From Nitrospirota bacterium (GTDB lineage: Bacteria; UBA2233), in NCBI GenBank assembly GCA_011620345.1, contig WOZJ01000057.1, positions 101,246 through 165,245 on the forward strand: a stretch of DNA of 64,000 nt. The letters run 5' to 3'. The number at the start of each line of letters is the position of its first letter. Position 1 is the first letter of the stretch. The translations under genes and the position numbers were made by a program. This document shows positions 4,487 through 63,018 of this stretch, piece by piece. The notes beneath the pieces are model-generated. The model saw only the letters and a list, made by a program, of their open reading frames with translations, was not told the DNA's origin and made no database searches.

Positions 4487-4488
4487 AG

Positions 4489-4875: not shown

Positions 4876-4934
4876 CCAGCCCTTGATCTTGTTTGAGCTC
4901 TGCTAAAGAATCGAACCGCAAAGGGGAATTTTCC

Positions 4935-33591: not shown

Positions 33592-35252
33592 TGAAGCGCC
33601 TTGTCGGGGTTGTTGTGGACGAGATAAGCATCGCCCATGTGTTCTAAAATTACCGGATCGTTTGGCTCAAGTTTTAAGGCACGCTCGAGCTGGGCGATGG
33701 CTTCCTCGATTCGGCCCAGCTTAAAATACGCCCAGCCAAGACTGTCCGCGATAAAGGCAGCATCCGGCTTGAGGGCGAGCGCTCGTGTCAACAACGAAAG
33801 CGCCTCGTCTAACCGGATACCGCGTTCTGCAAACGAGTAACCTAAGAAGTTGAGCGCATCGGGATCGTTCGGGTTTGTCTGGAGATACCCTCGAACGAGG
33901 GCCTCGGCTTTTCCAAGTTGGCCGTGTTTATCGTAGTAGAATGCAAGCGAGAGCAGATAGCTCTTGTTTTTGGGATCTAGGTCGTTGGCATGTTGAAGCG
34001 CTGCGATAGCCCTGTCATATTGCTTGACGTTGGCATGGATTTCGCCCAGAAGAGCCCAAAGGTTTGGGTTGTCTTTTTGCGTTTTGAGCGCTCCCTCGAG
34101 CGCATTGATTGCCTGCTGGAACAGGCCTTTCTGGGAATAGAGGTATGCCTTGAGCGTTAGGGCTTCGATGTAGACGGCCGAGTCTTCTGGGATCTTCTGG
34201 AGTTCTTCGATCGCCTCGCTTGCATTGCCCGCTTGAGCGAGCGTGTTTGCCAGCAGGTACCTAGCCTCGTCGTTCTTGGGCTCGTCTTCAAGGTAGCCCT
34301 TTAGCTCCTCGGTTGCCTTTTCGTAGTCTTGCAGTTCGTAATACGCAAGCCCAATGCGAACGCGGAGTTCGGATGCCCCCTTAAAGCGCGTCTGCATCCT
34401 CTTGTAATGCTCGAGCGCCTCTTTGTATCGTCCCGTCGTAATAAGAAGCTGTCCGACCTTATCTTGAACGGCAAAGTCGTCCTCATGGCCGGGGAGAAGC
34501 TTGTAGAAGCATGCCAGGGCCCGGGCCGGTTGGCCGGTCTCTTCGTACAGCAACCCTAAATCGAGAAGCACCCCACGGTTATCTGGTTCGATTGCGTAGG
34601 CCTTCTCAAGAGCTTCAATGGCTTTGGTAAGGTCATGTGCCCTGATGTAGAGCCTTCCTAGTAGGACAAGCATGGGAGTGTTGGCGGGGTGTTTATCAAG
34701 GTAAACCTTGAGATAGCGGATGCCTGTTGCAGACTGGTTTCTTTCTAGGCAGAGGCCCCCTAGGGCCAAAAGTACTTTTTTATCATCCGGATCCTTGTCC
34801 GCGATGCCCTTTAGTAGGCTGAACGCGCTGTCGAAGTCACCGTGGGCCATGTAAGTGCCCGCCAACTTTTTGGCGATATCCAACCTATCTGGGTTCTGCT
34901 TGTAGGCCTTTTCCATGAGGGATAGGGCCTGCCGCCTTCTTCCAAAGCGCCCCTCGATCTCAGCAAGCATGACATAGAGGTCGGGTTCTTTGGGATAGAG
35001 GCGGAGTGCTTCGATCGTCCACGCACGGGCTTCGGTAAGCTTTTCCTCGGCAAGCAAGTGCTGAACAAAAAGGCAGCGGGCCAAAAGGTCGGCCTTTTGG
35101 TCTTCCGGCCTGACAAGCAAAATTTCCGGGTGCTGTTCGAGGGCGACTATCGGCTGGTCGGACAAAACCCCGCCGTTCGGCAGGTAGGCTTGACACCCTG
35201 CCATTGTACCCGCAACAAGAAGTCCCATCCAGTGTTTGTTTAGAAAACGCAT
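33501..35252 (-). CDS. Tetratricopeptide-repeat (TPR) protein with N-terminal signal peptide
   Basis: 583 aa with at least 12 consecutive 34-residue TPR units (recurring W-LG-Y..G-Y..A...Y..AL...P pattern). N-terminal signal sequence. Confidence 0.8.
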   Translation of the reverse strand: MRFLNKHWMGLLVAGTMAGCQAYLPNGGVLSDQPIVALEQHPEILLVRPEDQKADLLARCLFVQHLLAEEKLTEARAWTIEALRLYPKEPDLYVMLAEIEGRFGRRRQALSLMEKAYKQNPDRLDIAKKLAGTYMAHGDFDSAFSLLKGIADKDPDDKKVLLALGGLCLERNQSATGIRYLKVYLDKHPANTPMLVLLGRLYIRAHDLTKAIEALEKAYAIEPDNRGVLLDLGLLYEETGQPARALACFYKLLPGHEDDFAVQDKVGQLLITTGRYKEALEHYKRMQTRFKGASELRVRIGLAYYELQDYEKATEELKGYLEDEPKNDEARYLLANTLAQAGNASEAIEELQKIPEDSAVYIEALTLKAYLYSQKGLFQQAINALEGALKTQKDNPNLWALLGEIHANVKQYDRAIAALQHANDLDPKNKSYLLSLAFYYDKHGQLGKAEALVRGYLQTNPNDPDALNFLGYSFAERGIRLDEALSLLTRALALKPDAAFIADSLGWAYFKLGRIEEAIAQLERALKLEPNDPVILEHMGDAYLVHNNPDKALQCYKKALENKPESPEAIEEKIRSILNQSSL

Positions 35253-48827: not shown

Positions 48828-49306
48828 TCATTCTTGGCTCCAAGAGCGATGCCGCAACCATCCAGCCGTGCCTTGAGATCCTGGCCCGTGCAGGGGTTCC
48901 GGCCCGCGTTCGTATCGCTTCAGCGCACAGGTCGCCCAAATTCCTAGACGAGATCATTCAGAAGGCGAACGAGGACCCGGAAGTGGCGGTTATCCTTGCC
49001 GCGGCGGGCCAAGCCGCCCACCTTCCCGGAGTGGTTGCGTCAAAGACGCTCAAGCCGGTTCTCGGGGTTGCTATTGCGGGCCCCCCTCTTCAAGGGGTAG
49101 ATGCCATGCTCTCGATCGTTTCCATGCCAAAGGGCGTTCCATGCCCCCTTGTGGGCTTGGACAAGTCGGGGGCGGTCAACGGTGCGCTTTTTGCCTTAAG
49201 AGTGCTAGCCGTTCATGACACAAAAGCTATGGCCTTCTTGGAAGGCTACCAAAAGGAACTCGAAGAGGCCGTCCGGAGGGATGACGCCCAAGAGGGCCAT
49301 CTTTAG
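48812..49306 (+). CDS. purE: N5-carboxyaminoimidazole ribonucleotide mutase PurE
   Basis: VVIILGSKSDAATIQPC ... AHRSP ... AGQAAHLPGVVAS, typical PurE class I. Confidence 0.85.
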   Translation: MASVVIILGSKSDAATIQPCLEILARAGVPARVRIASAHRSPKFLDEIIQKANEDPEVAVILAAAGQAAHLPGVVASKTLKPVLGVAIAGPPLQGVDAMLSIVSMPKGVPCPLVGLDKSGAVNGALFALRVLAVHDTKAMAFLEGYQKELEEAVRRDDAQEGHL

Positions 49307-49462
49307 GCTTTCTTGGGAGGGCTTTCGGATGCCTTTGTATCCCAAAAGTCCACGAGGATTCTGATATTTCGCAAAAGTTCGGCGTTTTTGCTCGAGAGCC
49401 TAAGGACATACCCGAAAAGGCCTGCCCAGAGGACTAGATAGGCGGCGGTTAAGTATTCCACG

Positions 49463-50176
49463 CTAACAAACCTCCATTTGCATGCGCACTTTTTTAAGGA
49501 GCGTTTTTGCACGGGCAAGGGCGAATCGCTCTACCAAAAGGACGGCAAAGAAGAATAGGAACGTTACGAGGCTGATCCATAGCGTTTCGGCCATAGGCTG
49601 ATCTAGGCCTGCACCCTTCCGGCCAGACAGAACGCTAGGATGGATGCTTCGCCACCATTTGACGGACATCCTTACGATGGGGACGTCAAGGAAGGCTATA
49701 ATCCCGAGCACGGCAGCAGCCCTCTTCCCCTGCTCACTTTCGAGCGAGAGGTGTCGAAGAAGCAGGTATCCGACGTACAGAACCCAGAGGATCAGTGTCG
49801 TAGTGAGGCGATTGTCCCACGTCCAGTAGGCGCCCCATGCAGGCTTTGCCCAGATCGGCCCCGTTATCAGCACCAGAGAGCAGCATGCGACGCCCACTTC
49901 GGCCAGGCTGGAAGCAAGGTCGTCAAACACGTCCTTACGAACGGCAAGAAAGGCGATGCTCGCGACGAAAACGCCGAAGAATGCTGTGAATGCGCCGATT
50001 GCGCACGGCAGGTGTATGTAGAAGATTTTCTGCACGACCCCTTGATAAGAGTCGATAGGCGTGAACCAAAAGATGCGGATAAAGCCTCCAAGCACGCCCA
50101 GGCATGCCGCAGTTACGGCGAGCGTGTTCAACCGCGATGCGTAGTACCGTTCGAGCATCTTGTCGAGCATTGGCAT
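49463..50176 (-). CDS. ccmC: Heme exporter protein CcmC
   Basis: Six TM helices and the WWD domain WGAYWTWDNRLT with flanking His residues. Confidence 0.85.
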   Translation of the reverse strand: MPMLDKMLERYYASRLNTLAVTAACLGVLGGFIRIFWFTPIDSYQGVVQKIFYIHLPCAIGAFTAFFGVFVASIAFLAVRKDVFDDLASSLAEVGVACCSLVLITGPIWAKPAWGAYWTWDNRLTTTLILWVLYVGYLLLRHLSLESEQGKRAAAVLGIIAFLDVPIVRMSVKWWRSIHPSVLSGRKGAGLDQPMAETLWISLVTFLFFFAVLLVERFALARAKTLLKKVRMQMEVC

Positions 50177-50178
50177 GG

Positions 50179-50856
50179 CTATTCTTCCAAAACATGTTCA
50201 ATAAGCAACAGACCCATCCCAAAGTAAAGCAAGTCAAACCCAACAAGGAGACTTCCCCAGCCGGATCCCATCTCGAACCGGCCGTTGAGCCCTTGGCGCA
50301 TGAGCGAGGAGGAGGCGAGCAGCGGAGGAATCATCAGCGGATAGAGCAACACTGCCAAGAGTACATGCCTTGCCCTGACATTCCAGGACAAGAGCGTCAT
50401 GAGGGTGCCGAGCGCGCTAAACCCAAAAAGGAATAGCATCTCGACCCATACTACCCAAAGAAGCTGAAGCCATGTAAGCGAAAGCCCCAAAAACGCGATA
50501 AAAACGGGTAGGGATACGATCCCGACCATAAACAGGAACGCAAGCGTAGAAAAGGTCTTTCCTAGGTAGAGGGAGCTAAGCCCTACCGGGGACACGACGA
50601 TTCCGTACAAGCCATCGTCCCTACGCTCCCGCTCGATCGCCTTTTCGAGCGCCAGGATGCCGCTTAACGCCAAAAGCGTCAGGTAGAGGGCGGGGAAGAG
50701 CTGGCGGGATTGATCGGGCAATGGCGAAAGCGAGAACACGAACAAGAGCAACAATACGAGGCAGAAAAGCCCCAAAGGGATAAAAATCTCCTTAGAGCGG
50801 GCCTCAATCATAAAATCCCTTTGGACGAGCGCCCAGGTTGCCGTGAGGGTACTCAT
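50179..50856 (-). CDS. ccmB: Heme exporter permease CcmB
   Basis: Six-TM ABC-2-type permease placed between ccmA and ccmC. CcmB-like FxxDxxxGxxE region (ALEKAIERERRDDGLYG). Confidence 0.75.
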   Translation of the reverse strand: MSTLTATWALVQRDFMIEARSKEIFIPLGLFCLVLLLLFVFSLSPLPDQSRQLFPALYLTLLALSGILALEKAIERERRDDGLYGIVVSPVGLSSLYLGKTFSTLAFLFMVGIVSLPVFIAFLGLSLTWLQLLWVVWVEMLFLFGFSALGTLMTLLSWNVRARHVLLAVLLYPLMIPPLLASSSLMRQGLNGRFEMGSGWGSLLVGFDLLYFGMGLLLIEHVLEE

Positions 50857-51557
50857 GCGAGCGCTTCCATGACAACGTTCATTAAGGCGGGGTTGTCTGC
50901 CTCCGACTCGGCCACGATCCGTCCGCCCTTGATCAGCAAGACGGTGGTGGCAAGCTCCTTTGCAAACGCAAGGTCATGGCTCGTGAACAGGACGGTGGTA
51001 GGCTGGACAAAAAGGTCACGAGCGAAACCAAGGGCTTCCTCGTCGAGCCCGTTGAATGGCTCGTCGAGGATAAGCAGCCTTGGCTCGTGTAGACGAACCC
51101 TCACAAGGGCTAGCCGCTGGCGTTGGCCAGTGGAGAGCGTGAATACAGGGCTACGGCGGGCATGCTCAAGGCCTGCCCAGGAAAAAAGCCCTTCGATACG
51201 CTCGTCCAGCGATTGCTTGTCCATGCCGTACAGCTTTCCAAAGAAGTGCAAATTTTCTTCGAGGGTTAACTCTTCGGCAAAAAACCCCCGGCTTAAAAGC
51301 AGCCCCAAGTGCCGCAAAGAAGCCCTTGGGGCCTGATCGATCGGATGTCCGAAGAGCCGGACATGCCCGCTGTTTGGCCTTTGGATGCCGCAAAGAAGCT
51401 TAAGCAAGGTGGTTTTCCCTGCCCCGTTGGGCCCGTAGAGTAACACCCGCTCATTTTGTCCGAGTCTCAGGTGAACACTTCGAAGAACCCAGCGTTCAGA
51501 TAGCACTTTCGAAACACCAACAGCTTCTAGCAGCGGTGGGGAGGTATCTTGAGCCAT
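50853..51557 (-). CDS. ccmA: Cytochrome c biogenesis ABC ATPase CcmA
   Basis: Walker A GPNGAGKTTLLK, signature LSTGQRQR, Walker B LLILDEP. Overlaps the ccmB start (ATGA-type coupling). Confidence 0.85.
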   Translation of the reverse strand: MAQDTSPPLLEAVGVSKVLSERWVLRSVHLRLGQNERVLLYGPNGAGKTTLLKLLCGIQRPNSGHVRLFGHPIDQAPRASLRHLGLLLSRGFFAEELTLEENLHFFGKLYGMDKQSLDERIEGLFSWAGLEHARRSPVFTLSTGQRQRLALVRVRLHEPRLLILDEPFNGLDEEALGFARDLFVQPTTVLFTSHDLAFAKELATTVLLIKGGRIVAESEADNPALMNVVMEALA

Positions 51558-51581
51558 AGCTCGTAGGCTTTTGCTTAAGAC

Positions 51582-52292
51582 TTAAGAAGAAAGAGTCATG
51601 CCGCGGCGCCTGGATCGCGCCCTAAAGGCAAACAGCAAAAGAAGCCCTATGCCGATCCCGCCCGCGATGATCAAGCCTGGGTGGATCGATTTTCCCCCTT
51701 GCGCGTGGAATACCACGACGAGAGACGGAGCGCCGGGAAGGCCGGCATGGCCGACGTAGTGCTCAAACGTTTGGGGAGCCTTGTCGGCGGGCAGCACCTC
51801 GTCTTCGAGTTTGCTTGCCCCTTCGACGGTGACTGCAAACACCCCTCCCTTTGGAACAAAAATCTCAACGGGATGAGGCGAAGCAACCCTTCCTGGTTCG
51901 AAGCGAAAAGGCTTTGAACCCATCGTAACCGTGTAAGCGAGGCTGAACTGATTCTGGCCTAGTCTTACCCCCCCAGTGTAGACGACGTTCTCCTTCTTAA
52001 GCTTTGCGCCAGCATCAAGGCCATGCAGCAACTTTACTCCGTTTGCGCCGGAAGGAAGAGGAAACTTTAGCGCATTGCTCCCTTCGAGCTTGTCCAAGGC
52101 CAGCTTGGATGCAAGCACGTATACCTCCATAACATCGATAGATTGGTCGTCTTTAGGAAGAAGGACAAGGCTCCTCCGAGCAGAAGCGACGAACGACGGG
52201 AAAGCGACCGCCGGTTCCTCGGCCATGAGCGTTCCAGAGAAGATCCACGCGGTAGCCAAAAATCCGCAAGCAAGGCTAAATACAGACTTCAT
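51582..52292 (-). CDS. Hypothetical exported protein with C-terminal TM anchor, encoded inside the ccm operon
   Basis: 236 aa. N-terminal signal-like hydrophobic segment, ~190 aa soluble domain without Cys motifs, then a C-terminal TM helix (LIIAGGIGIGLLLLFAF) and an RSRRR tail. I recognise no homology. Confidence 0.5.
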   Translation of the reverse strand: MKSVFSLACGFLATAWIFSGTLMAEEPAVAFPSFVASARRSLVLLPKDDQSIDVMEVYVLASKLALDKLEGSNALKFPLPSGANGVKLLHGLDAGAKLKKENVVYTGGVRLGQNQFSLAYTVTMGSKPFRFEPGRVASPHPVEIFVPKGGVFAVTVEGASKLEDEVLPADKAPQTFEHYVGHAGLPGAPSLVVVFHAQGGKSIHPGLIIAGGIGIGLLLLFAFRARSRRRGMTLSS

Positions 52293-52417
52293 GGGTTTTT
52301 TGTATCCTTTCGTTTGGGTTTGAGAGCGTGCCCAGAATCCTGCCCCTCCAAGAAGGGCAGGATCAAGTAGGACAAAACCACCCCAACCAGGATCATTTCT
52401 ACAAGTGCAATCGTCAT
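52289..52417 (-). CDS. Small single-TM peptide (42 aa), possible CcmD-like component
   Basis: MTIALVEMILVGVVLSYLILPFLEGQDSGHALKPKRKDTKNP: one TM helix plus a basic tail. Start abuts the ccmF stop. Assignment is by position and topology only. Confidence 0.3.
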   Translation of the reverse strand: MTIALVEMILVGVVLSYLILPFLEGQDSGHALKPKRKDTKNP

Positions 52418-52422
52418 CGTCT

Positions 52423-54384
52423 CTAGCTCGCTATATCTACAAAGTTTTTTTGTCCGGCGAATTCTGGAGATTTGTCTGCCAAAGGAATGAGCGTAAGGAC
52501 CCCTCCAAGACACATGAGCGTTCCTCCAAGCCAAAGGAATCCAATCAGCGGGTTGTCGTGAACCTCAAACACACCTTGTTGATGCTGGAAATCATAGCCC
52601 GCAAGGACGGCATAAACGTCTCCGCTGGGCCTTGACCGGATGGCTACTCGCGTTACAGGCTGCTCTTGATTTTTTAGGAATGTCTTGCTAGGCACGAGCG
52701 AGGAGACGAAGGTTCCGTTTTTGTACAGGTGAAGAAGAGAGGAGATTGTAATCCAAGGACCATCTTGCTTAAAAGCCAGCCCATCGAACACCAGCTGATT
52801 GTCCCCGACCGAGGTCGATTCCCCCTTCTTCAGGCTTACTTCTTGCTTGGTGTGGCCATACTGCCCAAACACACCAAAAAGAGAGATCACCAAGCCAGTG
52901 TGGACAAGGATCGCTCCAACACGCCGTATTCTTAGGTCTCCAAGAAAGGCGCTAACCAGCGCGTGTTTCAGGATGCCTACAGCCGCGAACCCCAAAAAGG
53001 CCATCCCTACCAACTCATTGAGATGTCGAAGCCCAAATATCCCCCATGCGAGCCCACCAACGACAAGGCCCCCGATGATGGGCCCAAGCAGCGAAGAAAG
53101 GGTACGTTTGAGTGTCTCGGGAGATGGTGGCAGGAAAAGGCCGGCCCCTAGCGTGAACAGCAATGCCCAGGCGAGAGGAGCGTTGATCTTGTTGAAGAAA
53201 GCCGCCCCTAAACTGAGCTTTTGCCCGATGAATGCTTCCGAAACTAGCGGGAATATCGTTCCCCAAAACGTCGTGAACGTCATGGCGACGAGAATCACGC
53301 AGGTGAAAACCAGCGCGGAAGGACGCGAGAGCAAAGGAAGGCTCTCTAGGTTTTTCTCGCCCTTGAGGAGCCCGCGCCGCAAGAAGATCAGGCCGAATCC
53401 GTAGACCAAAAGCGCAAACAGAAACGCCGTGAAGCTGATTGTAAAGGTCTTATTTTGGACGAAGGCGTGAACCGAGCTGATGATACCGCTCCGCGTGAGG
53501 AAGGTTCCAAAGATGGTCAGCCCAAAAGAAAAAACGACGAGGGCAAGGTTCCATTTCTTCAGCAGCCCCGTGCGGGCCTGCAGCAGCAACGTATGCAATA
53601 GAGCTGAAAGCGTAAGCCAAGGCAGCAATCCCGCGTTCTCGACAGGGTCCCATGCCCAGAAGCCGCCCCACCCTAACGTTTCGTATGCCCAGTTGCCCCC
53701 CAAAAGGTTTCCGATTCCCAAAAGCCCCCATGACCCAAGGCAGAACGTTCGAATCGCCCGAAAGGCGCTCGGGTTGTCGAATTTGGCGAGCAGCATCCCC
53801 ACAACGAGCGCGTAGGGAACCGTCGCGCTGATGTAGCCAAGATACAAGGTAGGCGGGTGGATGGCCATGATCGGATGCTGGAGTTGTGCATTGAGGCCTA
53901 GTCCTTCGGCAGGCGTGAAAGGGAGTAGCGTAAATGGGTTCGTAACGAAAACGACGAGTGCCAAAAAGAAAACGAGCACGCCCAGGATGGCGTGGTATGA
54001 GTACAGGCTAACGTTTAAGGGTAGCCCGAACGTCTTTCTGAAGGTCAAGAGCGAAACGACCCCCATCAAAGCGACCATCCAGGCCCAAAGAAGCAGCGAG
54101 CCGGCCTGGCCTGCCCAGAATGCGGTCATCGTGTATAAAAAGGGAAGATCTTTCGAGACGTGGCTTGCTACGTACTCAACCCTTAGGTCTTTGGTTGCCA
54201 AAAGTTCTATCAGACATAGAGAGGCAACGGAAAGGAGCCCAAACGACGCAACAATCGTTCTTGTCGCACTCTTGGCCAAACGGGCCTTTTCTTTTGGATT
54301 CTTGGCGGCCGTAAAGGCTGAAACAGACCCGTAAAGAGCGACAAGAAGGGCAAGAAGAAGGGCGAAACTTCCAAGGCTTGCCAT
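52423..54384 (-). CDS. ccmF: Cytochrome c-type biogenesis protein CcmF
   Basis: ~650 aa polytopic protein with the WWD domain GFWAWDPVENAGLLPWL and conserved His residues. Start taken at MASLGSFALL so it abuts ccmE; the six-frame ORF extends to 54447. Confidence 0.9.
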   Translation of the reverse strand: MASLGSFALLLALLVALYGSVSAFTAAKNPKEKARLAKSATRTIVASFGLLSVASLCLIELLATKDLRVEYVASHVSKDLPFLYTMTAFWAGQAGSLLLWAWMVALMGVVSLLTFRKTFGLPLNVSLYSYHAILGVLVFFLALVVFVTNPFTLLPFTPAEGLGLNAQLQHPIMAIHPPTLYLGYISATVPYALVVGMLLAKFDNPSAFRAIRTFCLGSWGLLGIGNLLGGNWAYETLGWGGFWAWDPVENAGLLPWLTLSALLHTLLLQARTGLLKKWNLALVVFSFGLTIFGTFLTRSGIISSVHAFVQNKTFTISFTAFLFALLVYGFGLIFLRRGLLKGEKNLESLPLLSRPSALVFTCVILVAMTFTTFWGTIFPLVSEAFIGQKLSLGAAFFNKINAPLAWALLFTLGAGLFLPPSPETLKRTLSSLLGPIIGGLVVGGLAWGIFGLRHLNELVGMAFLGFAAVGILKHALVSAFLGDLRIRRVGAILVHTGLVISLFGVFGQYGHTKQEVSLKKGESTSVGDNQLVFDGLAFKQDGPWITISSLLHLYKNGTFVSSLVPSKTFLKNQEQPVTRVAIRSRPSGDVYAVLAGYDFQHQQGVFEVHDNPLIGFLWLGGTLMCLGGVLTLIPLADKSPEFAGQKNFVDIAS

Positions 54385-54386
54385 GC

Positions 54387-54815
54387 CTACCTCGTTTTGT
54401 TTTGCGAAGGGTTGGTCTCCGACTTGGCGCTGTAGCGCGAAGGACAACTCGTCAGGAGTGTTTTGGCCTCAAATGTTCCGTTCGCCAGGGTGCCCTGGAC
54501 GATGACCTGCCCCCCCTCGCGCAGCATGTCGGGTACAGCCCCCCGGTAAGCCACCGGGATCTCTCCTGTTTCGTCCGTTAGCACGAAAAAGGCCCCAAGG
54601 CCGCTCGGTTGTTTGGCGATCGAGCCTTGTTTCACCTTTCCGATCACCCTGACCTCGGGTTTGGACTCTAAGAATTTTGGAATATCTCGGACAGGAACAG
54701 AATAAGTGCTGGCCTCCCTGACAGCCCCATACACAAGGTAGGAGAAGCCCACCAAGAGGATTCCGAGCGCCACGACAAGCTTGGATTTTGGTACACGCAT
54801 AAAAAGAACCTCCAA
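54387..54815 (-). CDS. ccmE: Heme chaperone CcmE, Cys variant (CxxxY in place of HxxxY)
   Basis: N-terminal TM anchor and OB-fold (VRVIGKVKQGSI ... GGQVIVQGTL). Where E. coli has LAKHDENY this protein reads LTSCPSRY, so the heme-binding His is replaced by Cys. Confidence 0.85.
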   Translation of the reverse strand: MEVLFMRVPKSKLVVALGILLVGFSYLVYGAVREASTYSVPVRDIPKFLESKPEVRVIGKVKQGSIAKQPSGLGAFFVLTDETGEIPVAYRGAVPDMLREGGQVIVQGTLANGTFEAKTLLTSCPSRYSAKSETNPSQNKTR

Positions 54816-54869: not shown

Positions 54870-55493
54870 ATGAGGGAAGTGTCAGGCAAAAAAAGCTCTC
54901 GGATCGAGTCCGTTTCGGGTGCCATCAAAGGCGGTGCGCTCGTAGTGTATCCGACGGAGACGTTCTACGCGTTGGGAGCGAGCCTATTTCATTCGCGTGC
55001 GCTTTCGAGAGTGTTCTCCGTAAAGGGCAGAGACCCCTCAAAGCCTTTGCCTTTCATCGCCTCCAGCATCTCTCAAGCGCTTGGGATGCTTGAGGACGAA
55101 TCGGAGACCATCCTTAGGCTGGCGGTTAGTTTTTGGCCGGGGCCTTTGACGATCGTAGGAAGGGCTTCGAGCATTGTCCCTGTTTCTGCCTGTGCCCTCG
55201 ACAAGACGATCGCCATACGCGTCAGTGCCCATCCCGCCGCCCGTGCGTTGGCCAGGTTTTCTGGCTCTCCCGTGACGGCAACATCGGCAAACTTCAGCGG
55301 AGGTCCGCCCGCCAGGTCGCTTGCTGACATGCCAAGTAGGCTGCTTAACCTTGTCGATTGCGTCTTAGACGGCGGTTTACTGCCAGGAGGGCTGCCCTCT
55401 ACTATTGTACGTATGGAAGGGTCCAGTTTGCATGTCCTTAGGGAAGGTGCCGTTCCGTCAGTCGCGTTGTCCCGCGTTGTCCCGCTCTTTTGA
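54870..55493 (+). CDS. tsaC: L-threonylcarbamoyladenylate synthase, YrdC/Sua5 family (TsaC)
   Basis: YrdC domain: GGALVVYPTETFYALGA ... SANFSGGPPA. Confidence 0.75.
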   Translation: MREVSGKKSSRIESVSGAIKGGALVVYPTETFYALGASLFHSRALSRVFSVKGRDPSKPLPFIASSISQALGMLEDESETILRLAVSFWPGPLTIVGRASSIVPVSACALDKTIAIRVSAHPAARALARFSGSPVTATSANFSGGPPARSLADMPSRLLNLVDCVLDGGLLPGGLPSTIVRMEGSSLHVLREGAVPSVALSRVVPLF

Positions 55494-55512
55494 TCAATGG
55501 AGAAAGGGCGTG

Positions 55513-56517
55513 CAACCAGAGGACGGCGATAGATTTCTTAGGACGGTACGGCACCTTTGCACTGGCCCCGTCTCGGCCCTTGGAGGAGAAAGCCTGTCTG
55601 TTCGCCAAGGTAAAGGAAGAGTGTTGATCTCCCGCTTAGGAGGCAGGTATGCATGTCTTGAGACAGAAGGCCTAATGCTCGTGGATCTCGAGGGCAACGT
55701 GCTTTCGGGCATGGGCGATCCGCCCTTCGAGATGGAGTTGCACCTTGGAGTCTACAAAGCGGTTGATGCCGCAAGCTCAGTGTTTTTTTCTCAACCGACG
55801 CTTACGCTTGCGCTGCTGGAAGACGGCCTCTCACCGCATCCTGTAGGCGAACAGGCCTCTTTATGGCTCGGTTTGCTCCCTTCGTTAAGACCTGATGGAT
55901 TGCTGGATGACTATGTTACGGATATTTTGCATGTTTTAAGCTATTCCAATCTATGCCTGCTCCCCAAGAAGGGCGTGGTCACGCTTGGAAGAACGCCCGG
56001 AGAGGCGCTTTGGCTTTGCAGCTTGATCGAAGAGTCCTCTATGGCGACGCTCGAGCTGATCCGCCTAGATTCGGGTTTGCATCAAAGCTTAAAAGAGGCG
56101 AAAATTGAAGAAGCTTTTTTTATTTCTCCGTTTCCTTGGCCTTTATTCGGAAAGGCGCACCGCAAATTCATCTCGGACAAAATCGCCTTGCATCAAGACG
56201 ATCTTGTAGGTTCCCTCGAGGGCCTGCCTCCTTTCGAGACGGTCTTTTGTCTGGCCGAAGTAGCCGATGCTCCCAAAAGGAGGCTTGAGGTAAGATTCAC
56301 CCATGACGGCGTGCGCCTTCTTGGGGTCGAAAAAAGGCTTGAGAATGCAGTGAGAATCGAAGGCGGGTTCCCCGTGTTCGAGGCGTTGTTTTCGGGAAAG
56401 ACTACCCTGGCAAGCGCCGTGCTTCATGGTAGGTTGCAAAGGTCCGGCCTTTCCTTACGCCAACTTCGTCCTTTTTTGAGGCCGCTTGAAGGCTTTTTGC
56501 GCGCAGTGCTGCCATGA
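55513..56517 (+). CDS. Class II aldolase/adducin-like domain protein with metal-binding His residues replaced, plus C-terminal SCP2-like domain
   Basis: GESLSVRQGKG..ISRLGG...LVDLEGN...PPFEMELHLGVYKA matches the class II aldolase N-terminal half. The zinc-ligand H-x-H position reads FFSQPT and NHG reads KKG. C-terminal ~120 aa resembles a sterol-carrier-like fold. GTG start with RBS ggagaaaggg directly after the tsaC stop; the six-frame ORF begins at 55405. Confidence 0.5.
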   Translation, partial: QPEDGDRFLRTVRHLCTGPVSALGGESLSVRQGKGRVLISRLGGRYACLETEGLMLVDLEGNVLSGMGDPPFEMELHLGVYKAVDAASSVFFSQPTLTLALLEDGLSPHPVGEQASLWLGLLPSLRPDGLLDDYVTDILHVLSYSNLCLLPKKGVVTLGRTPGEALWLCSLIEESSMATLELIRLDSGLHQSLKEAKIEEAFFISPFPWPLFGKAHRKFISDKIALHQDDLVGSLEGLPPFETVFCLAEVADAPKRRLEVRFTHDGVRLLGVEKRLENAVRIEGGFPVFEALFSGKTTLASAVLHGRLQRSGLSLRQLRPFLRPLEGFLRAVLP

Positions 56518-58259
56518 ACGGCCGTCTAGGAGAAAACGGCGGCCTTTTGTGGCCGTTGTTCCGAGCGCATTGGAGACCATACCTCGTAGGATTTATCGCC
56601 CTCTTCATCGTGGACGTACTCGATCTTTTGCCCACGCTACTCATTAAGCAGGCCATCGACCGGCTGTCATTAAAGGGGCCTGTTTCGGCGATCGCTGCGC
56701 TGGCGCTTGGCTATAGCCTGATCGTATTCATCCAAGGCTGGTTTCGCTACCTATGGCGCATCTTCTTGATCGGTACGTCCTTCCACATTGACAAGGAGTT
56801 GCGCCACACCCTCATTCAAAAGGTATTTCGCATGCGACCGGATGTCGCAGCAGGCTTAAGCCCAGGCGAACTGATGGGCCATGCCACCCAGGACGTCGAT
56901 GCAGTTCGGATGGCGATGGGCTCCGGCCTGCTCGTCGGTTTGGACGCCGTTCTCTACCTGTTGTTGCTGCCGCCCTTGCTCATTTGGCTGGATGCAGGCC
57001 TTGCGCTTGCCGTTGCTGCTCCGATGGCCTTCGTTCCATTTTTTGTGTTTTGGTTTGGTAAAAACGTGCATTCCCGATTCTCAGAAGTTCAAGAAGAGTT
57101 TGGCGTCGTGACGGAGGTGACGCGGGAAACGTTGGGGGCGATCCTGCAGGTGAAGCTTGCCCCGGACCCTTTGGTCTTTGTCCGCCGATTCCAGGCTGCC
57201 AACATGCGGTTCTTAGAGAAAAACCTTAGGCTCGTCCAACTCCAGGCGCTGATCGAGCCATTCCTTGAAGGCGTAGGAGCGTTTGCACTCGTCTTGCTCA
57301 TGGTAGTGGGCGGGCTTGGAGTTATTCGGGGGGATGTAAGCCTTGGGACGTTCGTGGCCTTTCAGCGCTACATCTCGATGATGGTCTGGCCGATGGTGGC
57401 AATAGGCTGGTCGAGTGCCGTCATCCAACGAGGCAGGGGATCGGCCGCAAGACTACTTAGGGTCCTTAAGCAGCAATCCGAACCGGATGCAATGTTCGAG
57501 CCCAAACTGCAGCTTCCCCCCTTTTACGAGCTTCGTGCCGAAGGGATCTCTTTTGGCTATGGGGCCGAGGCTTTGCTCGAAGGGGTAAGCCTTGCCATAG
57601 GTTCAAACGACCGGCTGGCAATCGTGGGCAGGATTGGTTCGGGCAAGTCTAGCCTCATCAATCTCCTCGCTGGAGTGCTCGAGCCGAAATCCGGCGTTGT
57701 CCTTCTAAACGGAGCGAACATTCGATCTGTAAACTATATGACGCGCTCCAGGCTTTTAGGGGTCGTCGATGCGGAGGCCGTTCTTTTCTCGATGACGCTT
57801 CAAGAAAACATCACACTGGGGCTAGTTGGGTCAGTCATGCCCGATAAGGCAGAAATGCTTGAAGCGTTGAGGGTGGCCGGTTTTGAGGACGACGACCTGC
57901 AAAAGCTTCCAGATGGGCTTGAAACGCTGCTTGGGGAGCGTGGTATGACGCTCTCCGGCGGACAACGCCAACGAATCGCCCTAGCCAGGGCCATTTTGCG
58001 AAAGCCAGGTCTTTTAATCCTAGACGATGCCCTTTCCCAGCTCGACTATGAGACCGAAGCAAAGATTCTGAACAATTTGGCCGAGAAGAACATGGCCATT
58101 GTCCTCGCCACGAACAGGCTCCATACCCTAAGGTTTTTCAAGCGCGTTTACCTCCTGAGGGCAGGACGCATCTTCCCGGCCGTGCCCGAGGCCTTAGACC
58201 GTGAGCTGGCCTGGGGTGGATTGGGAGGAAGTGCGCAAGGGGATGCTCACGATGGCTAG
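56514..58259 (+). CDS. ABC exporter, fused permease/ATPase subunit 1 (MsbA/CydDC-like half transporter)
   Basis: Six-TM type I exporter domain plus NBD (GRIGSGKSSLINLL, LSGGQRQRIALARA, LLILDDALS). ATGA overlap with the upstream gene stop. Confidence 0.85.
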   Translation: MNGRLGENGGLLWPLFRAHWRPYLVGFIALFIVDVLDLLPTLLIKQAIDRLSLKGPVSAIAALALGYSLIVFIQGWFRYLWRIFLIGTSFHIDKELRHTLIQKVFRMRPDVAAGLSPGELMGHATQDVDAVRMAMGSGLLVGLDAVLYLLLLPPLLIWLDAGLALAVAAPMAFVPFFVFWFGKNVHSRFSEVQEEFGVVTEVTRETLGAILQVKLAPDPLVFVRRFQAANMRFLEKNLRLVQLQALIEPFLEGVGAFALVLLMVVGGLGVIRGDVSLGTFVAFQRYISMMVWPMVAIGWSSAVIQRGRGSAARLLRVLKQQSEPDAMFEPKLQLPPFYELRAEGISFGYGAEALLEGVSLAIGSNDRLAIVGRIGSGKSSLINLLAGVLEPKSGVVLLNGANIRSVNYMTRSRLLGVVDAEAVLFSMTLQENITLGLVGSVMPDKAEMLEALRVAGFEDDDLQKLPDGLETLLGERGMTLSGGQRQRIALARAILRKPGLLILDDALSQLDYETEAKILNNLAEKNMAIVLATNRLHTLRFFKRVYLLRAGRIFPAVPEALDRELAWGGLGGSAQGDAHDG

Positions 58260-60027
58260 CGTCCGCCTTCGGCCGCTAGGGGGCAACCCACGCTTGATCT
58301 CCTTTTTTTGGCCATACATTCAACCCTACAGGAGGATGTTTTTTCTGGCTTTTGGTCTCAGCCTTTGGAGCGGCGCGATGTATGCCTTTTCCCCGTGGTT
58401 GGTAGGCATCGGTGTGGACAGGGGAATCCTTGCAGGCAAGCCCCACGTGATCATCCTGTTGGCCGTGCTTATTGGGAGCCTTGAGATACTTCGATGCTTT
58501 TTGGGCTACGCCGGGGAAAGTCTGCTTCAAAAGGCGGGGCAAAAGGTGCTTGCCAATCTTAGAGGACAGCTCTTCTCGCGCTCTCTTTGGCTTCCTTCTG
58601 CCTACTACATAAAAGAGCCTACGGGCAAGGTCGTGACACGCATCACCAACGATGTCCAGGCGATGTCCGAGCTTTTCTCGACAGGCTTAGCCAAGGTGTT
58701 CGTCGACTTGGTCCTGCTCCTGGCCAGCTTGGGTGGGCTTCTTTGGCTGGATGCGCGTCTGTTCGGACTAACTGCCTTAAGCCTCCCGCTTATGGTAGTG
58801 ACGTTTCGGTTTTTCTCGAAAAGACTTATGGATGTCCAGCGGAGAGTGAAAGTTTGCCTATCCAAGATTAACGCCTTCATTTCAGAAAACTTTTCGAACC
58901 TTCCTACGGTTCGGGCGTTGTTTGCCCACGCAGCGCAGATTCAGGGCTTCGAGAGGCTAAACGAAGCATACTGCGAGGCACAGATGGGGCAGGTTCACAT
59001 GAACGGCCTGTTCCAGCCTGCAATGCGCACGATTAACGCGCTCAGCGTTTCGGCATTGCTTTGGGCCGGGGGGTTCTTTGTGCTCAAGGGCAAGATGGAA
59101 CCAGGCGTGCTTGTGGCCTCGCTTATGTACATTCAGCAGATGTACCGACCGCTTCGAGACATGACCGAAAAATACTCGGTCCTGCTTTCCGCTTTCGCCT
59201 CCTTGGAGAGGATCGTCTCTTTTGGAAGTTTAGAAAAAGAGCCCATGAGCCCGTTCCCACGGGCGAAATGCAATGAAGGCCCTCTTTTGCTCAACTACGG
59301 GGTCGAATTTAGAAACGTTTCTCTTTCCTACGACGGAAAGAGAAACGCGCTGGATAGCGTAAGCCTCTGCATAAAAAAAGGAGAGCGTATCGCTTTGGTG
59401 GGCGAGACAGGGGCAGGAAAATCGAGCATGACCAGCCTCATGCTTCGATTCTTCGAGCCGACAGATGGCTCTATCCTTTGGGACGGAAAAGACCTGCACA
59501 CCATTCCGCTTGTAGGCTATCGGAAGACGATTGCTTGGGTGCCGCAATCGATAGGCCTATTTACCGGGACACTTTTGGAGAACCTCACACTTTTTGATGA
59601 GCTCCTTGCTCCCAAGGCGCTGGCCCTCTTAGACCAGGCCGGGCTTTTGGCCTACTTTGAAGCAAAGCCTTCAGGCCTTCGTTTTCGTATTCAAGAAGGA
59701 GGGGCCAACCTCTCGCTCGGAGAAAAGCAGCTCATCGGAATCGTCCGATCTCTCGTGAAAGACCCGGAACTGCTCGTTTTGGATGAGGCCACCTCTGCGC
59801 TCGATCCTTTTACCGAGGGCTTGATTCAACGTGCAGTGGAAAGGCTTCTCCACGACAAGACGGCCCTGATTGTGGCACATCGACTCTATACCGTACAAAC
59901 AGCTTCCAAGATCGTCGTACTCAAGCAGGGCAGAGTAGCCCAGTTGGGAACCCACGCCTCACTCCTCCAGGCTGGAGGCTATTACGCAAGCCTCTTCCAA
60001 GCAGGCCCGCTCGGTTTTCTTCCGTAA
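58252..60027 (+). CDS. ABC exporter, fused permease/ATPase subunit 2 (heterodimer partner)
   Basis: Six TM plus NBD (GETGAGKSSMTSL, LSLGEKQLIGIVRS, LLVLDEATSALD). Start ATGGCTAG overlaps the stop of subunit 1; the six-frame ORF begins at 58201. Confidence 0.85.
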   Translation: MASVRLRPLGGNPRLISFFWPYIQPYRRMFFLAFGLSLWSGAMYAFSPWLVGIGVDRGILAGKPHVIILLAVLIGSLEILRCFLGYAGESLLQKAGQKVLANLRGQLFSRSLWLPSAYYIKEPTGKVVTRITNDVQAMSELFSTGLAKVFVDLVLLLASLGGLLWLDARLFGLTALSLPLMVVTFRFFSKRLMDVQRRVKVCLSKINAFISENFSNLPTVRALFAHAAQIQGFERLNEAYCEAQMGQVHMNGLFQPAMRTINALSVSALLWAGGFFVLKGKMEPGVLVASLMYIQQMYRPLRDMTEKYSVLLSAFASLERIVSFGSLEKEPMSPFPRAKCNEGPLLLNYGVEFRNVSLSYDGKRNALDSVSLCIKKGERIALVGETGAGKSSMTSLMLRFFEPTDGSILWDGKDLHTIPLVGYRKTIAWVPQSIGLFTGTLLENLTLFDELLAPKALALLDQAGLLAYFEAKPSGLRFRIQEGGANLSLGEKQLIGIVRSLVKDPELLVLDEATSALDPFTEGLIQRAVERLLHDKTALIVAHRLYTVQTASKIVVLKQGRVAQLGTHASLLQAGGYYASLFQAGPLGFLP

Positions 60028-61755: not shown

Positions 61756-62322
61756 TTAAAACGCCCCTTCTTCGATGGGCGGTGCCAGCGTATCCACGAT
61801 AGGGCTCTCTCCAAGGATCGCGACGAGCAAAGGCCGCAATCCTTGAACGACCGCAGGGAGGCCTCCTGGATATTTTAGCGTGCCGTAAACCAAATCGATC
61901 GTCGACTGGATCGGGTCTTGTGGGTCGCCCACCATTGCGTTGAGCATCGGATATAGAGGGTAGATCAACGGGTCTATGTTGCGGGCGGCAAGCGCTTCCC
62001 TTCCTGCCGGTGAGTTGGCGATACCTACCACTAGGGCGGAAAGCCGGATTACGGTATCGCGTACGTCCTCTGCCGTAATCTGCGAAAGCGCCGGGTTCGT
62101 TCGAAGCTGGTTGGCAAGCTGTACGGTCTGCTGAGTCATGAGCGGGAGAAGATCCGGTGGTACGTTGTAGTGCCGAACATCCAAGGCGTGAAGAAACTCC
62201 TGGGGCGTGACGTGGCGAATGTTCGTATCCAGGTTTCCTTGTTGATCAGCACAGCCTAAAAACCCAAGGGAAAAAAACAAGCAACCGCCTCCTAACACGC
62301 GCCAAAGCTTGCCCATGGTCAT
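61756..62322 (-). CDS. Hypothetical lipoprotein/secreted protein
   Basis: N-terminal hydrophobic leader with FLGC (lipobox-like) followed by a ~165 aa Pro/Leu-rich domain. I recognise no homology. Confidence 0.5.
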   Translation of the reverse strand: MTMGKLWRVLGGGCLFFSLGFLGCADQQGNLDTNIRHVTPQEFLHALDVRHYNVPPDLLPLMTQQTVQLANQLRTNPALSQITAEDVRDTVIRLSALVVGIANSPAGREALAARNIDPLIYPLYPMLNAMVGDPQDPIQSTIDLVYGTLKYPGGLPAVVQGLRPLLVAILGESPIVDTLAPPIEEGAF

Positions 62323-62514: not shown

Positions 62515-63018
62515 ATGGAGGCAGTCCAAGCGTTAAGCGTGGCGGATTTTATCTTGAACTCTCTCGAAAAAAATCCGGTTTGCCTTTCGAAATCCCTTCA
62601 TGAAAGCTCGGTGATTCTAGCGTTCTTTAGGACGACATGTCCGGCGTGTCAGCTGCTTTTCCCCTACCTCGAACGCATTCACGATTACTACCCCATCCAG
62701 CGGATTTATGGCATTTCTCAAGATGCAGAGGCAACAACGAGGGAGTTTGCCGCGCGCTATGCCGTTGAATTTCCCGTCCTTTTAGATGAAAGTTGTTATG
62801 TCAGCGAAGAATTCGGCATCGATGTCGTTCCTACGATTCTATGGGTTGAGGCCGACATGTCTGTAGGCTTCTTCTCTAGCGGTTTTTCAAAGAAGGACCT
62901 AAACCTCCTTGGGTCAAGAATCGTCAAGCGTTACCGCCAGGAGCCAATCCAGATCGCCGCCCCGGATGACGGTGCTCCGCTTATCAAACTAGGCTCTTCG
63001 AGCAAAAGGCCCTCGTGA
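62515..63018 (+). CDS. Thioredoxin-fold protein (redoxin/AhpC-TSA-like) with CPAC motif, no signal peptide
   Basis: VILAFFRTTCPACQLLFPYL is a CxxC active site in a thioredoxin-fold context, followed by ...VVPTILWV. Confidence 0.7.
   Translation: MEAVQALSVADFILNSLEKNPVCLSKSLHESSVILAFFRTTCPACQLLFPYLERIHDYYPIQRIYGISQDAEATTREFAARYAVEFPVLLDESCYVSEEFGIDVVPTILWVEADMSVGFFSSGFSKKDLNLLGSRIVKRYRQEPIQIAAPDDGAPLIKLGSSSKRPS

What the first reader, a model, noticed from the sequence alone, without database searches (positions are those of the whole stretch)
49463..54815. Variant System I cytochrome c maturation operon: Cys-type CcmE (CxxxY), no ccmG/ccmH, and two unknown genes between ccmF and ccmA
The operon reads ccmE-ccmF-[42 aa TM peptide]-[236 aa exported protein]-ccmA-ccmB-ccmC on the minus strand. 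In CcmE the canonical heme-binding HxxxY is replaced by CxxxY (LTSCPSRY versus E. coli LAKHDENY). No thioredoxin-like CcmG or CcmH is encoded here. This matches the minority System I variant described for Desulfovibrio and archaea, where CcmE attaches heme through Cys and CcmG/H are dispensable. The 236-aa secreted/anchored protein (51582-52292) and the 42-aa peptide (52289-52417) sit where ccmD or ccmH would be expected and match no Ccm component I recognise. They are candidate new accessory factors of this variant pathway.
Basis: partly seen in the sequence, partly recalled or inferred. Interest (0 to 1): 0.7.

Follow-up and report, generated by a model that had tools for sequence, protein, structure and literature searches.

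The report
Cys-type cytochrome c maturation operon, two extras
This is a known minority form of the bacterial machinery that attaches heme to cytochromes c. It carries two extra, unannotated membrane-protein genes, and distant relatives of the larger gene sit at the same spot in three other lineages, so they are probably new helper subunits whose role is still unproven.

Summary
On the minus strand lies one tightly packed operon: ccmE, ccmF, a 42-aa peptide, a 236-aa protein "X", then ccmA, ccmB and ccmC. CcmE has CPSRY where E. coli has HDENY. This is the published "System I*" variant (Cys-type CcmE, no CcmH or CcmG in the operon), so that part is already known.

The new part is the pair of inserted genes. 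X matches no Pfam, NCBIfam, PHROG or PDB entry. An exhaustive profile search of 1.84 billion proteins found only three real clusters. In every contig long enough to show it, a homolog sits directly upstream of ccmA, and directly downstream of ccmF wherever the upstream side is on the contig. This holds in three distant lineages (22-37% identity; GC 37%, 60% and 68%). One of these also carries a Cys-type CcmE.

X has a signal peptide, a Cys-free beta-rich periplasmic domain, a C-terminal membrane helix and a short basic tail. Longer relatives add a cytoplasmic segment that hits the CcmI N-terminal model below threshold, in register, in 3 of 3 sequences and 0 of 9 shuffled controls.

My best reading is a CcmH/CcmI-like, redox-inactive partner of CcmF that handles apocytochrome. 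The link to Ccm is well supported; the specific role is inferred.

The parts
54387..54800 (-). ccmE, Cys-type heme chaperone (137 aa from ATG 54800; the mechanical ORF extends to 54815)
   Evidence: PF03100 E 1.8e-22. CPSRY aligned with E. coli HDENY. GGAGG ribosome-binding site before ATG 54800. Relatives are called at 137 aa.
54444..54446 (-). TGT codon for the heme-binding Cys of CcmE (CPSRY)
   Evidence: Read directly from the sequence. Conserved in L002 and L006, and in the distant L010 (KCPTKY).
52423..54384 (-). ccmF, heme lyase (653 aa)
   Evidence: PF16327 plus PF01578. Full-length match to Thermus thermophilus CcmF 6ZMQ, E 1.4e-79, with the WGGFWAWDPVEN motif present.
52289..52417 (-). 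42-aa single-pass membrane peptide (hydrophobic N-terminal half, basic C-terminal tail); no known family
   Evidence: Same length, same position and same ATGA overlap with X in L002, L003-L006 and L012. dN/dS is 0.29 against L003 and L006, and 0.57 against the much more diverged L002, where synonymous sites approach saturation. No Pfam, NCBIfam or PDB hit. Unrelated to CcmD.
51582..52292 (-). X: 236-aa bitopic protein with a signal peptide, a Cys-free beta-rich periplasmic domain, a C-terminal membrane helix and a short basic tail; orphan family
   Evidence: No family hit. Only 8 clusters by word-indexed search and 3 real clusters among 1.84 billion representatives. Every homolog is directly upstream of ccmA, and downstream of ccmF where visible. 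dN/dS 0.19. AF2 predicts an all-beta domain plus a terminal helix, pLDDT 53-54.
51747..51767 (-). FEHYVGH motif of X (residues 176-182), the most conserved stretch, about 25 residues before the membrane helix
   Evidence: F176 and Y179 are invariant, and E177 and H178 nearly invariant, across 12 sequences. P0012 has FDRY.
51612..51680 (-). C-terminal membrane helix of X (residues about 205-227), followed by RARSRRRGMTLSS
   Evidence: Highest Kyte-Doolittle window at residue 205. Helix 205-229 in both AF2 models.
50853..51557 (-). ccmA, ABC ATPase
   Evidence: PF00005 E 4.9e-30. Sub-cutoff hits to the ccmA models TIGR01189 and NF010061. Its stop overlaps the ccmB start.
50179..50856 (-). ccmB
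   Evidence: PF03379 CcmB, 61 bits against a cutoff of 24.9.
49463..50176 (-). ccmC (WGAYWTWDNRLT tryptophan-rich motif)
   Evidence: PF01578 passes its cutoff (100 bits against 29.9). TIGR01191 E 4.3e-43, 147 bits, below its curated cutoff of 186. Motif read from the translation.
   Evidence: TIGR04391 CcmD_alt_fam, 32.4 bits against a cutoff of 24. A 47-55 aa ORF sits at the same place in L002-L006, L008 and L012. The model was scanned on three of them: L006 (29.2 bits) and L008 (29.6 bits) pass the cutoff, L002 is below it (16.5 bits).

Best explanation
The locus is one co-transcribed, eight-gene System I* cytochrome c maturation operon of an uncultured Nitrospirota bacterium: ccmE(Cys)-ccmF-pep42-X-ccmA-ccmB-ccmC-ccmD.

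CcmABCD load heme onto the Cys of CcmE, and CcmF transfers it to apocytochromes, as published for Desulfovibrio and archaea.

The two inserted genes encode dedicated, lineage-restricted accessory subunits.
- X is exported by its signal peptide. It stays anchored by its C-terminal helix, with a roughly 180-residue Cys-free beta-sandwich-like domain in the periplasm.
- pep42 is a single-pass N-out/C-in peptide, translationally coupled to X.

I propose that X, probably paired with pep42, docks through its membrane helix on CcmF. There it would take the place that CcmH/CcmI hold in canonical systems, as a redox-inactive holder or presenter of the unfolded apocytochrome (or of holo-CcmE) at the CcmF active site.

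Shown: gene content, Cys-type CcmE, reality and conservation of both ORFs, and their fixed position.
Inferred: the topology (from hydropathy, charge and low-confidence AF2 models), membership in the Ccm machinery (from synteny), the CcmF/CcmI-like role (from architecture and a weak CcmI similarity in relatives), and any peptide or heme binding.
For: Operon packing:
- The gaps run 2, 5, -4, 24, -4, 2 and 1 nt from ccmE to ccmD.
- No internal terminator signal above the chance level.

X is tied to ccm across deep divergence:
- The close clade (L002-L006, L012) keeps E-F-pep42-X-A-B-C-D.
- P0009 (profile E 8e-45; GC 37%) has small ORF-X-A-B-C-D.
- P0010 (profile E 4.6e-5; GC 60%) has F-X-A-B plus a small ORF with a sub-cutoff hit to the canonical CcmD model.
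- P0012 (GC 68%) has E(Cys)-F1-F2-X-A.
- In these loci the core Ccm proteins are only 31-61% identical to the window's. The ccm genes are the only shared neighbours.

Both ORFs are under purifying selection.

Architecture: X (signal peptide, periplasmic domain, membrane helix, basic tail) has the same layout as N-CcmH, as described in PMC3601427.

CcmI link: the membrane helix plus cytoplasmic segment of P0010, P0009 and P0012 each hit TIGR03142 (the CcmI N-terminal membrane module). All hits start at profile position 5-6. E-values are 0.0049, 0.042 and 0.17. For two of the three sequences it is the best or the only hit out of 18,950 models. None of 9 reversed or segment-shuffled controls hit it.

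Literature: CcmI is reported to enhance System I* output in Desulfovibrio (PMC3601427). Whether CcmH/I are replaced non-orthologously is an explicit open question (PMC9084895).
Against: - There is no direct functional evidence.
- All CcmI hits are below the curated cutoff (29.3 bits). They lie in a part of the protein that the window's own X lacks, since its tail is only about 10 residues.
- No His, Cys or Met is invariant across the family; P0012 has FDRY where the others have FEHY.
- Gene position between ccmF and ccmA cannot tell a CcmF partner from a CcmAB(CD) partner.
- Desulfovibrio System I* and archaeal CcmABCEF work heterologously without any X-like protein (PMC3601427, PMC9084895). 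X is therefore not generally required for Cys-CcmE chemistry.
- The family is very rare, so it may be a dispensable embellishment.
Confidence: 0.45

Rival explanations
1. X and pep42 belong to the heme-delivery half of the pathway. They would associate with CcmAB(CD) and modulate loading or ATP-dependent release of Cys-linked holo-CcmE, rather than working with CcmF.
For: - X is always immediately upstream of ccmA. The gaps are 24, -14, 17, 17, 6 and 1 nt, and in L002 the genes overlap.
- In L009, X stays with ccmA-ccmB although ccmC is not adjacent.
- pep42 is a small single-pass peptide, like CcmD, which acts in the CcmABCD release complex (PMC9084895, PMC9616876).
Against: - X is equally tightly linked to ccmF on its other side, with gaps of 4-8 nt (about 65 nt in L010, once the true start of P0012 is used).
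- A bona fide CcmD is already present, and pep42 is unrelated to it.
- The only family-level signal in the relatives points to CcmI, a CcmF/H partner.
Confidence: 0.2
2. X is a generic envelope protein with no role in cytochrome c maturation. It would be kept between ccmF and ccmA only by inherited gene order.
For: No known domain, no conserved redox or heme-ligand residue, faster evolution than the core genes (51% identity against 66-74% at the L002 distance), and a very narrow distribution.
Against: - The same position is kept in four compositionally very different genomes (GC 37-68%), in which flanking non-ccm genes differ and CcmF is even split.
- Genes are translationally coupled on both sides.
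- The relatives carry a CcmI-like membrane module.
Confidence: 0.12
3. X replaces the thiol-redox branch (CcmG, CcmH or DsbD) and keeps the apocytochrome CXXCH cysteines reduced.
For: It occupies an operon that lacks ccmG and ccmH, and it has the membrane topology of CcmH.
Against: - X has a single Cys, inside the signal peptide, and that Cys is absent in P0006-P0009.
- There is no CXXC motif anywhere and no thioredoxin or CcmH family hit.
- X is predicted to be beta-rich, not a three-helix bundle or a thioredoxin fold.
Confidence: 0.02
4. The 42-codon ORF is not translated. It would be a spacer between ccmF and X that happens to stay open.
For: - It is short, has no family match, and has a weak Shine-Dalgarno-like sequence (AGAGACG).
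- It is absent between ccmF and X in L009 and L010.
- dN/dS rises to 0.57-0.88 in the most distant comparisons.
Against: - It is exactly 42 codons, with the same start and the same ATGA overlap, at 90%, 64% and 33-43% peptide identity.
- An invariant M..AL..M.LVG....YLI.PFL core carries conservative substitutions.
- dN/dS is 0.29 at moderate distance.
- Independent gene callers called it in four assemblies.
- An ORF overlapping the X start in the same way exists in the AT-rich L008.
Confidence: 0.1

Closest known systems
System I* (variant Ccm system of Desulfovibrio, some other bacteria and archaea; Allen et al. 2006, Goddard et al. 2010, as reviewed in PMC3601427; Methanosarcina in PMC9084895)
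   Same: - CcmE with CxxxY (here CPSRY; the commonest published form is CPSKY).
- No ccmH or ccmG in the operon.
- ccmD is retained, as in Desulfovibrio.
- Gene order starts with ccmE-ccmF and ends with ccmABCD.
   Different: Two additional conserved genes, pep42 and X, lie between ccmF and ccmA. They are not part of any described System I*. No TPR-type CcmI gene is in the operon.
CcmI / CycH (and the C-terminal half of E. coli CcmH): apocytochrome c chaperone subunit of the CcmFHI heme ligation complex
   Same: - Membrane-anchored, with a periplasmic substrate-facing domain.
- The membrane helix plus cytoplasmic segment of long-form X relatives gives reproducible, in-register, sub-threshold hits to the CcmI N-terminal model TIGR03142.
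- The orientation of that helix (N-out, C-in) matches CcmI TM1.
   Different: - No TPR repeats; the periplasmic domain is beta-rich and lies N-terminal of the helix rather than C-terminal.
- No second membrane helix.
- The window's X has lost the cytoplasmic segment altogether and gives no hit.
N-CcmH (Ccl2 / NrfF): thiol-oxidoreductase subunit of the CcmFH synthase
   Same: Same bitopic layout: cleavable signal peptide, periplasmic domain, one C-terminal membrane helix, basic cytoplasmic tail. Encoded next to ccmF.
   Different: No LRCxxC or any Cys pair. Not a three-helix bundle. No sequence similarity.
CcmD (including the CcmD_alt family TIGR04391)
   Same: pep42 is likewise a roughly 40-50 aa single-pass peptide with a hydrophobic N-terminal half and a charged C-terminal tail, encoded inside a ccm operon.
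   Different: No profile similarity (hhalign probability 1.8%). A genuine CcmD is encoded separately after ccmC.

Membership tests
System I* (Cys-type Ccm system) | CcmE carries Cys instead of the heme-binding His in the xxxY motif | tested here: met
   CPSRY aligned to E. coli HDENY. TGT codon at 54444-54446. PF03100 E 1.8e-22.
System I* (Cys-type Ccm system) | Core CcmA, B, C, E and F present (CcmD too in the bacterial versions) | tested here: met
   Pfam and NCBIfam hits for all of them, with CcmD_alt above its cutoff. CcmF is full-length against 6ZMQ.
System I* (Cys-type Ccm system) | No CcmH or CcmG (not universal: about one third of Cys-CcmE bacteria have CcmH, PMC3601427) | tested here: inconclusive
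   None in the operon, and no LRCxxC ORF in the 64-kb window. The only thioredoxin-like ORF (62515-63018) lacks a signal peptide or anchor. The rest of the genome could not be searched.
CcmI / CycH | N-terminal membrane module: two membrane helices flanking a cytoplasmic leucine-zipper-like loop (TIGR03142) | tested here: not met
   - The window's X and pep42 give no hit even at E up to 10.
- Long-form relatives hit TIGR03142 only below its cutoff (12-17 bits against 29.3), covering TM1 and the loop but not TM2.
CcmI / CycH | Periplasmic TPR domain (PF23914 and related) | tested here: not met
   No TPR hit for X or any relative. AF2 predicts beta strands.
CcmH / NrfF | Periplasmic LRCxxC redox motif in a three-helix bundle | tested here: not met
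   No Cys in mature X. No family hit. Predicted to be beta-rich.
CcmG / DsbE / ResA | Membrane-anchored thioredoxin fold with CxxC | tested here: not met
   No thioredoxin-family hit and no CxxC in X or pep42.
CcmD | Match to the CcmD models (TIGR03141, TIGR04391, PF04995) | tested here: not met
   - pep42: no hit; hhalign against the operon's own CcmD family gives probability 1.8%.
- By contrast, the ORF at 49303-49461 does meet it (32.4 bits against 24).

The most novel reading that the evidence does not exclude
X, together with pep42, is a previously unrecognised class of Ccm subunit. It would be a Cys-free, beta-sandwich, membrane-anchored apocytochrome (or holo-CcmE) handler that non-orthologously replaces CcmH/CcmI at CcmF in some System I* lineages. 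It would be evolutionarily linked to CcmI only through the membrane and cytoplasmic module retained in its long-form relatives. This would mean that 'streamlined' System I* is not always streamlined, and that the chaperone function of CcmH/I can be separated from thiol chemistry and supplied by a different fold.
Probability: 0.3. Interest if true: 0.7.

Novelty: new variant of a known kind. Interest (0 to 1): 0.5.

Why it matters
How System I* attaches heme without CcmH or CcmG is an acknowledged open question, and so is whether unrecognised proteins substitute for them (PMC3601427; PMC9084895 poses it explicitly for archaea).

A conserved, operon-embedded pair of membrane proteins gives a concrete candidate to test. 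One of them has CcmH-like topology, and its relatives carry a CcmI-like membrane module. The whole operon is compact (about 5.5 kb) and could be tested in the established E. coli delta-ccm heterologous assay.

The impact is limited. The family is rare (uncultured Nitrospirota and a few other metagenomic lineages), and other System I* machineries work without it.

Tried and rejected
**Family and homology searches on X, all negative**
- Pfam, NCBIfam and PHROGs scans of X and of pep42.
- A profile search against PDB sequences.
- tblastn against the plasmid collection.
- hhalign of X against the operon's CcmE and CcmF, probability 1% or less.

**Structure**
- Two AF2 runs, with 9 and 12 sequences, both gave pLDDT 53-54.
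- Foldseek against PDB gave a best E of 0.037 and TM-score 0.22.
- I treat this only as 'beta-sandwich-like'.
- The AFDB library was unavailable.

**Widening the family**
- Searches with an alignment, in genome contigs, in metagenome contigs and with a second word-indexed search added only P0012 and a duplicate of P0010.
- A CcmE query, meant to sample other Cys-type operons, returned only close relatives. The wider co-occurrence analysis could therefore not be done.

**Hypotheses rejected**
- pep42 as a second CcmD.
- X as a lipoprotein. The Cys9 context SLAC is a poor lipobox, and the Cys is absent in P0006-P0009.
- X as a thiol-redox protein, because it has no Cys.
- The neighbouring ABC exporter pair (56514-60027) as CydDC. 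Their best hits are SmdA/MsbA-type and all are below cutoff.
- The thioredoxin-like ORF at 62515-63018 as CcmG. It has no signal peptide or anchor.
- The TPR protein at 33501-35252 as CcmI. It is a lipoprotein with generic TPR cross-hits, has no CcmI membrane module and lies 15 kb away.

**Literature**
- The Goddard 2010 paper itself is not held. The Desulfovibrio operon details come from the 2011 review.

Full report
**1. What is in the sequence**

The window comes from an uncultured Nitrospirota bacterium. Its X protein is 92% identical to one on contig DDYN01000005.1 of 'Nitrospirae bacterium UBA2233'.

Eight ORFs on the minus strand between 49303 and 54800 are packed with gaps of 2, 5, -4, 24, -4, 2 and 1 nt. 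Pattern scans show no promoter- or terminator-like signal above the shuffled expectation inside the cluster.

| Gene | Coordinates | Evidence |
|---|---|---|
| ccmE | 54387-54800 | PF03100, E 1.8e-22 |
| ccmF | 52423-54384 | PF16327 and PF01578; full-length match to Thermus CcmF 6ZMQ, E 1.4e-79 |
| pep42 | 52289-52417 | no family hit |
| X (236 aa) | 51582-52292 | no family hit |
| ccmA | 50853-51557 | ABC_tran; sub-cutoff ccmA models |
| ccmB | 50179-50856 | PF03379 |
| ccmC | 49463-50176 | PF01578 above its cutoff; TIGR01191 E 4e-43, below its curated cutoff |
| ccmD (52 aa) | 49303-49461 | TIGR04391 CcmD_alt_fam, 32.4 bits against a cutoff of 24 |

**2. Cys-type CcmE**

The C-terminal motif reads LLTSCPSRYS.

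The codon is TGT at 54444-54446, not TGC near 54427. Two substitutions separate it from a His codon, and every relative has Cys. A sequencing error is therefore excluded.

This is the published System I* variant. It has Cys-linked CcmE and often lacks CcmH and CcmG. It is experimentally functional for Desulfovibrio in E. coli and for Methanosarcina (PMC3601427, PMC9084895). That part of the finding is correct but already known.

**3. CcmG and CcmH**

- Neither gene is in the operon.
- No ORF of 100 aa or more in the whole window contains LRCxxC.
- The only thioredoxin-like ORF (62515-63018, CPAC) has no signal peptide or anchor and matches ResA only weakly.
- A TPR protein at 33501-35252 cross-hits the CycH TPR family along with some 30 other TPR families. 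It is a lipoprotein without the CcmI membrane module and lies 15 kb away.
- The rest of the genome could not be searched, so genome-wide absence is untested.

**4. The two inserted genes are real**

- X is 92%, 75% and 51% identical to its counterparts in L003, L006 and L002. At the L002 distance, the core Ccm proteins are 66-74% identical.
- dN/dS against L006 is 0.19 for X and 0.09-0.12 for ccmA, ccmD, ccmE and ccmF.
- pep42 is exactly 42 codons in all four divergence classes. It has the same start, the same ATGA overlap with X, and an invariant M..AL..M.LVG....YLI.PFL core.
- dN/dS for pep42 is 0.29 at moderate distance.
- Independent gene callers called pep42 in several assemblies.

**5. 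X is an orphan, but it is faithfully ccm-linked**

- X has no Pfam, NCBIfam, PHROG or PDB-sequence match.
- The word-indexed search found 8 clusters, all named 'hypothetical protein' where a name exists.
- An exhaustive profile search of 1.84 billion representatives found only P0002 (the close clade), P0009 (E 8e-45) and P0010 (E 4.6e-5), plus one repetitive false hit.
- A further search added P0012.

The contexts of the distant homologs are:

| Homolog | Length | Locus GC | Gene order on its contig |
|---|---|---|---|
| P0009 | 295 aa | 37% | small ORF-X-ccmA-ccmB-ccmC-ccmD |
| P0010 | 499 aa | 60% | ccmF-X-ccmA-ccmB-small CcmD-like ORF (sub-cutoff hit) |
| P0012 | 537 aa | 68% | ccmE(KCPTKY)-ccmF1-ccmF2-X-ccmA |

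- The true start of P0012 lies upstream and adds a signal peptide.
- Core Ccm proteins in these loci are only 31-61% identical to the window's.
- The non-ccm flanks differ between loci.
- The only thing these genomes share around X is ccm. This is strong comparative evidence that X functions with the Ccm machinery.

**6. Anatomy of X**

- The N-terminal signal peptide reads MKSVFSLACGFLATAWIFSGTLMA|EE.
- The periplasmic domain is about 180 residues. It contains no Cys and is predicted to be all-beta with 12-13 strands.
- A hydrophobic helix spans residues 205-227 and is followed by RARSRRRG.
- Residues invariant across all 12 family members include E56, V57, Y120, F131, K148, F176 and Y179.
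- The FEHYVGH motif lies about 25 residues before the membrane helix. H178 is not universal, since P0012 has FDRY.
- Both AF2 models are poor (pLDDT 53-54).

**7. A link to CcmI in the long-form relatives**

P0009, P0010 and P0012 extend beyond the membrane helix into a helical cytoplasmic segment. All three share a motif:
- P0010: REIDFDYECGKLSESDHARLRAEY
- P0012: REIDFDHESGKLSDEDHQKLRERH
- P0009: LSDLELLKEEGKIEDQAFLERYEIL

P0010 and P0012 end in a zinc ribbon.

I scanned each helix-plus-tail segment alone against 18,950 NCBIfam models. Each hits TIGR03142, the N-terminal membrane module of CcmI.
- All three hits start at profile position 5-6.
- E-values are 0.0049 (the best hit for P0010), 0.042 (P0009) and 0.17 (the only hit for P0012).
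- All are below the curated cutoff of 29.3 bits.
- None of nine reversed or segment-shuffled controls hit that model.
- The orientation of the helix (periplasm to cytoplasm) equals that of CcmI TM1.

I take this as a real but weak similarity. It places the family on the CcmF/H/I side of the pathway. The window's own X has lost this segment and gives no hit, so the inference reaches it only through homology of the periplasmic domain.

**8. Mechanism proposed**

X has the bitopic layout of N-CcmH, and its relatives carry a CcmI-like membrane module. It lacks both the thiol chemistry of CcmH and the TPR repeats of CcmI.

The most economical reading is a redox-inactive, membrane-anchored partner of CcmF. 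It would hold or present the unfolded apocytochrome, or position holo-CcmE. pep42 would be a co-translated membrane partner.

My probability estimates are:

| Claim | Probability |
|---|---|
| X is Ccm-dedicated | about 0.8 |
| X has the CcmF-side, CcmH/I-like role | about 0.45 |
| X works with CcmABCD | about 0.2 |
| X is an unrelated passenger | about 0.12 |

Evidence against an essential role: Desulfovibrio and archaeal System I* work without any such protein (PMC3601427, PMC9084895), and the family is very rare.

**9. Verdict**

The System I* assignment is right but known. The 'ccmD slot' idea is wrong. The 'new accessory factors' idea is strengthened by deep synteny and by the CcmI-like signal, but it remains unproven.

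I rate this as a new variant of a known kind, of moderate interest.

Noticed in passing
window 49303-49461 (-): A 52-aa CcmD_alt-family gene starts one nt after the ccmC stop. It completes the operon as ccmE-F-pep42-X-A-B-C-D.
   Followed up: yes
window 56514-60027 (+): Two adjacent half-size ABC exporters (permease plus ATPase; 581 and 608 aa) lie about 1.7 kb beyond the ccmE end of the operon, on the opposite strand (tsaC and an aldolase-like gene lie between). The arrangement is syntenic in the relatives. Their best hits are SmdA/SmdB/MsbA-type, with weaker sub-cutoff CydC/CydD similarity. Whether they export a thiol reductant relevant to cytochrome maturation is open.
   Followed up: partly
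window 62515-63018 (+): A 167-aa thioredoxin-fold ORF with a CPAC motif and a weak ResA hit (E 9e-13, far below cutoff). It has no signal peptide or membrane anchor, so it is probably cytoplasmic and not a CcmG.
   Followed up: partly
window 33501-35252 (-) and 32710-33591 (-): A 583-aa multi-TPR lipoprotein (lipobox MAGC) hits PF23914 TPR_CcmH_CycH among many generic TPR families. It is followed by a second lipoprotein with no family match. It is probably unrelated to Ccm, but it is the only TPR candidate in the window.
   Followed up: partly
L009 372-1871, L010 about 3830-5614, L008 115-1002: Long-form X relatives carry extra modules. P0010 has a weak sub-cutoff hit to a CarboxypepD_reg-like N-terminal domain. 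P0009, P0010 and P0012 have a cytoplasmic helical segment with a D..(E)GK(L/I)S..D motif. P0010 and P0012 have a C-terminal zinc ribbon. The called start of P0012 is too far downstream and misses its signal peptide (MKYRLSSLILSLVLSLPGAAFAQ).
   Followed up: partly
L010 1737-3764: In the GC-rich lineage, CcmF is split into two genes (a Cytochrom_C_asm part and a CcmF_C part), as described for archaeal System I*. They sit next to a Cys-type CcmE and a long-form X.
   Followed up: no
window 61756-62322 (-): A 188-aa predicted lipoprotein (FLGC lipobox) with no NCBIfam match.
   Followed up: no
window 55405-56517 (+): A class II aldolase/adducin-like protein with an unusually long C-terminal extension (370 aa by the mechanical ORF; 280-335 aa in relatives). 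It lies between tsaC and the ABC exporters, and the arrangement is syntenic in all close relatives.
   Followed up: no
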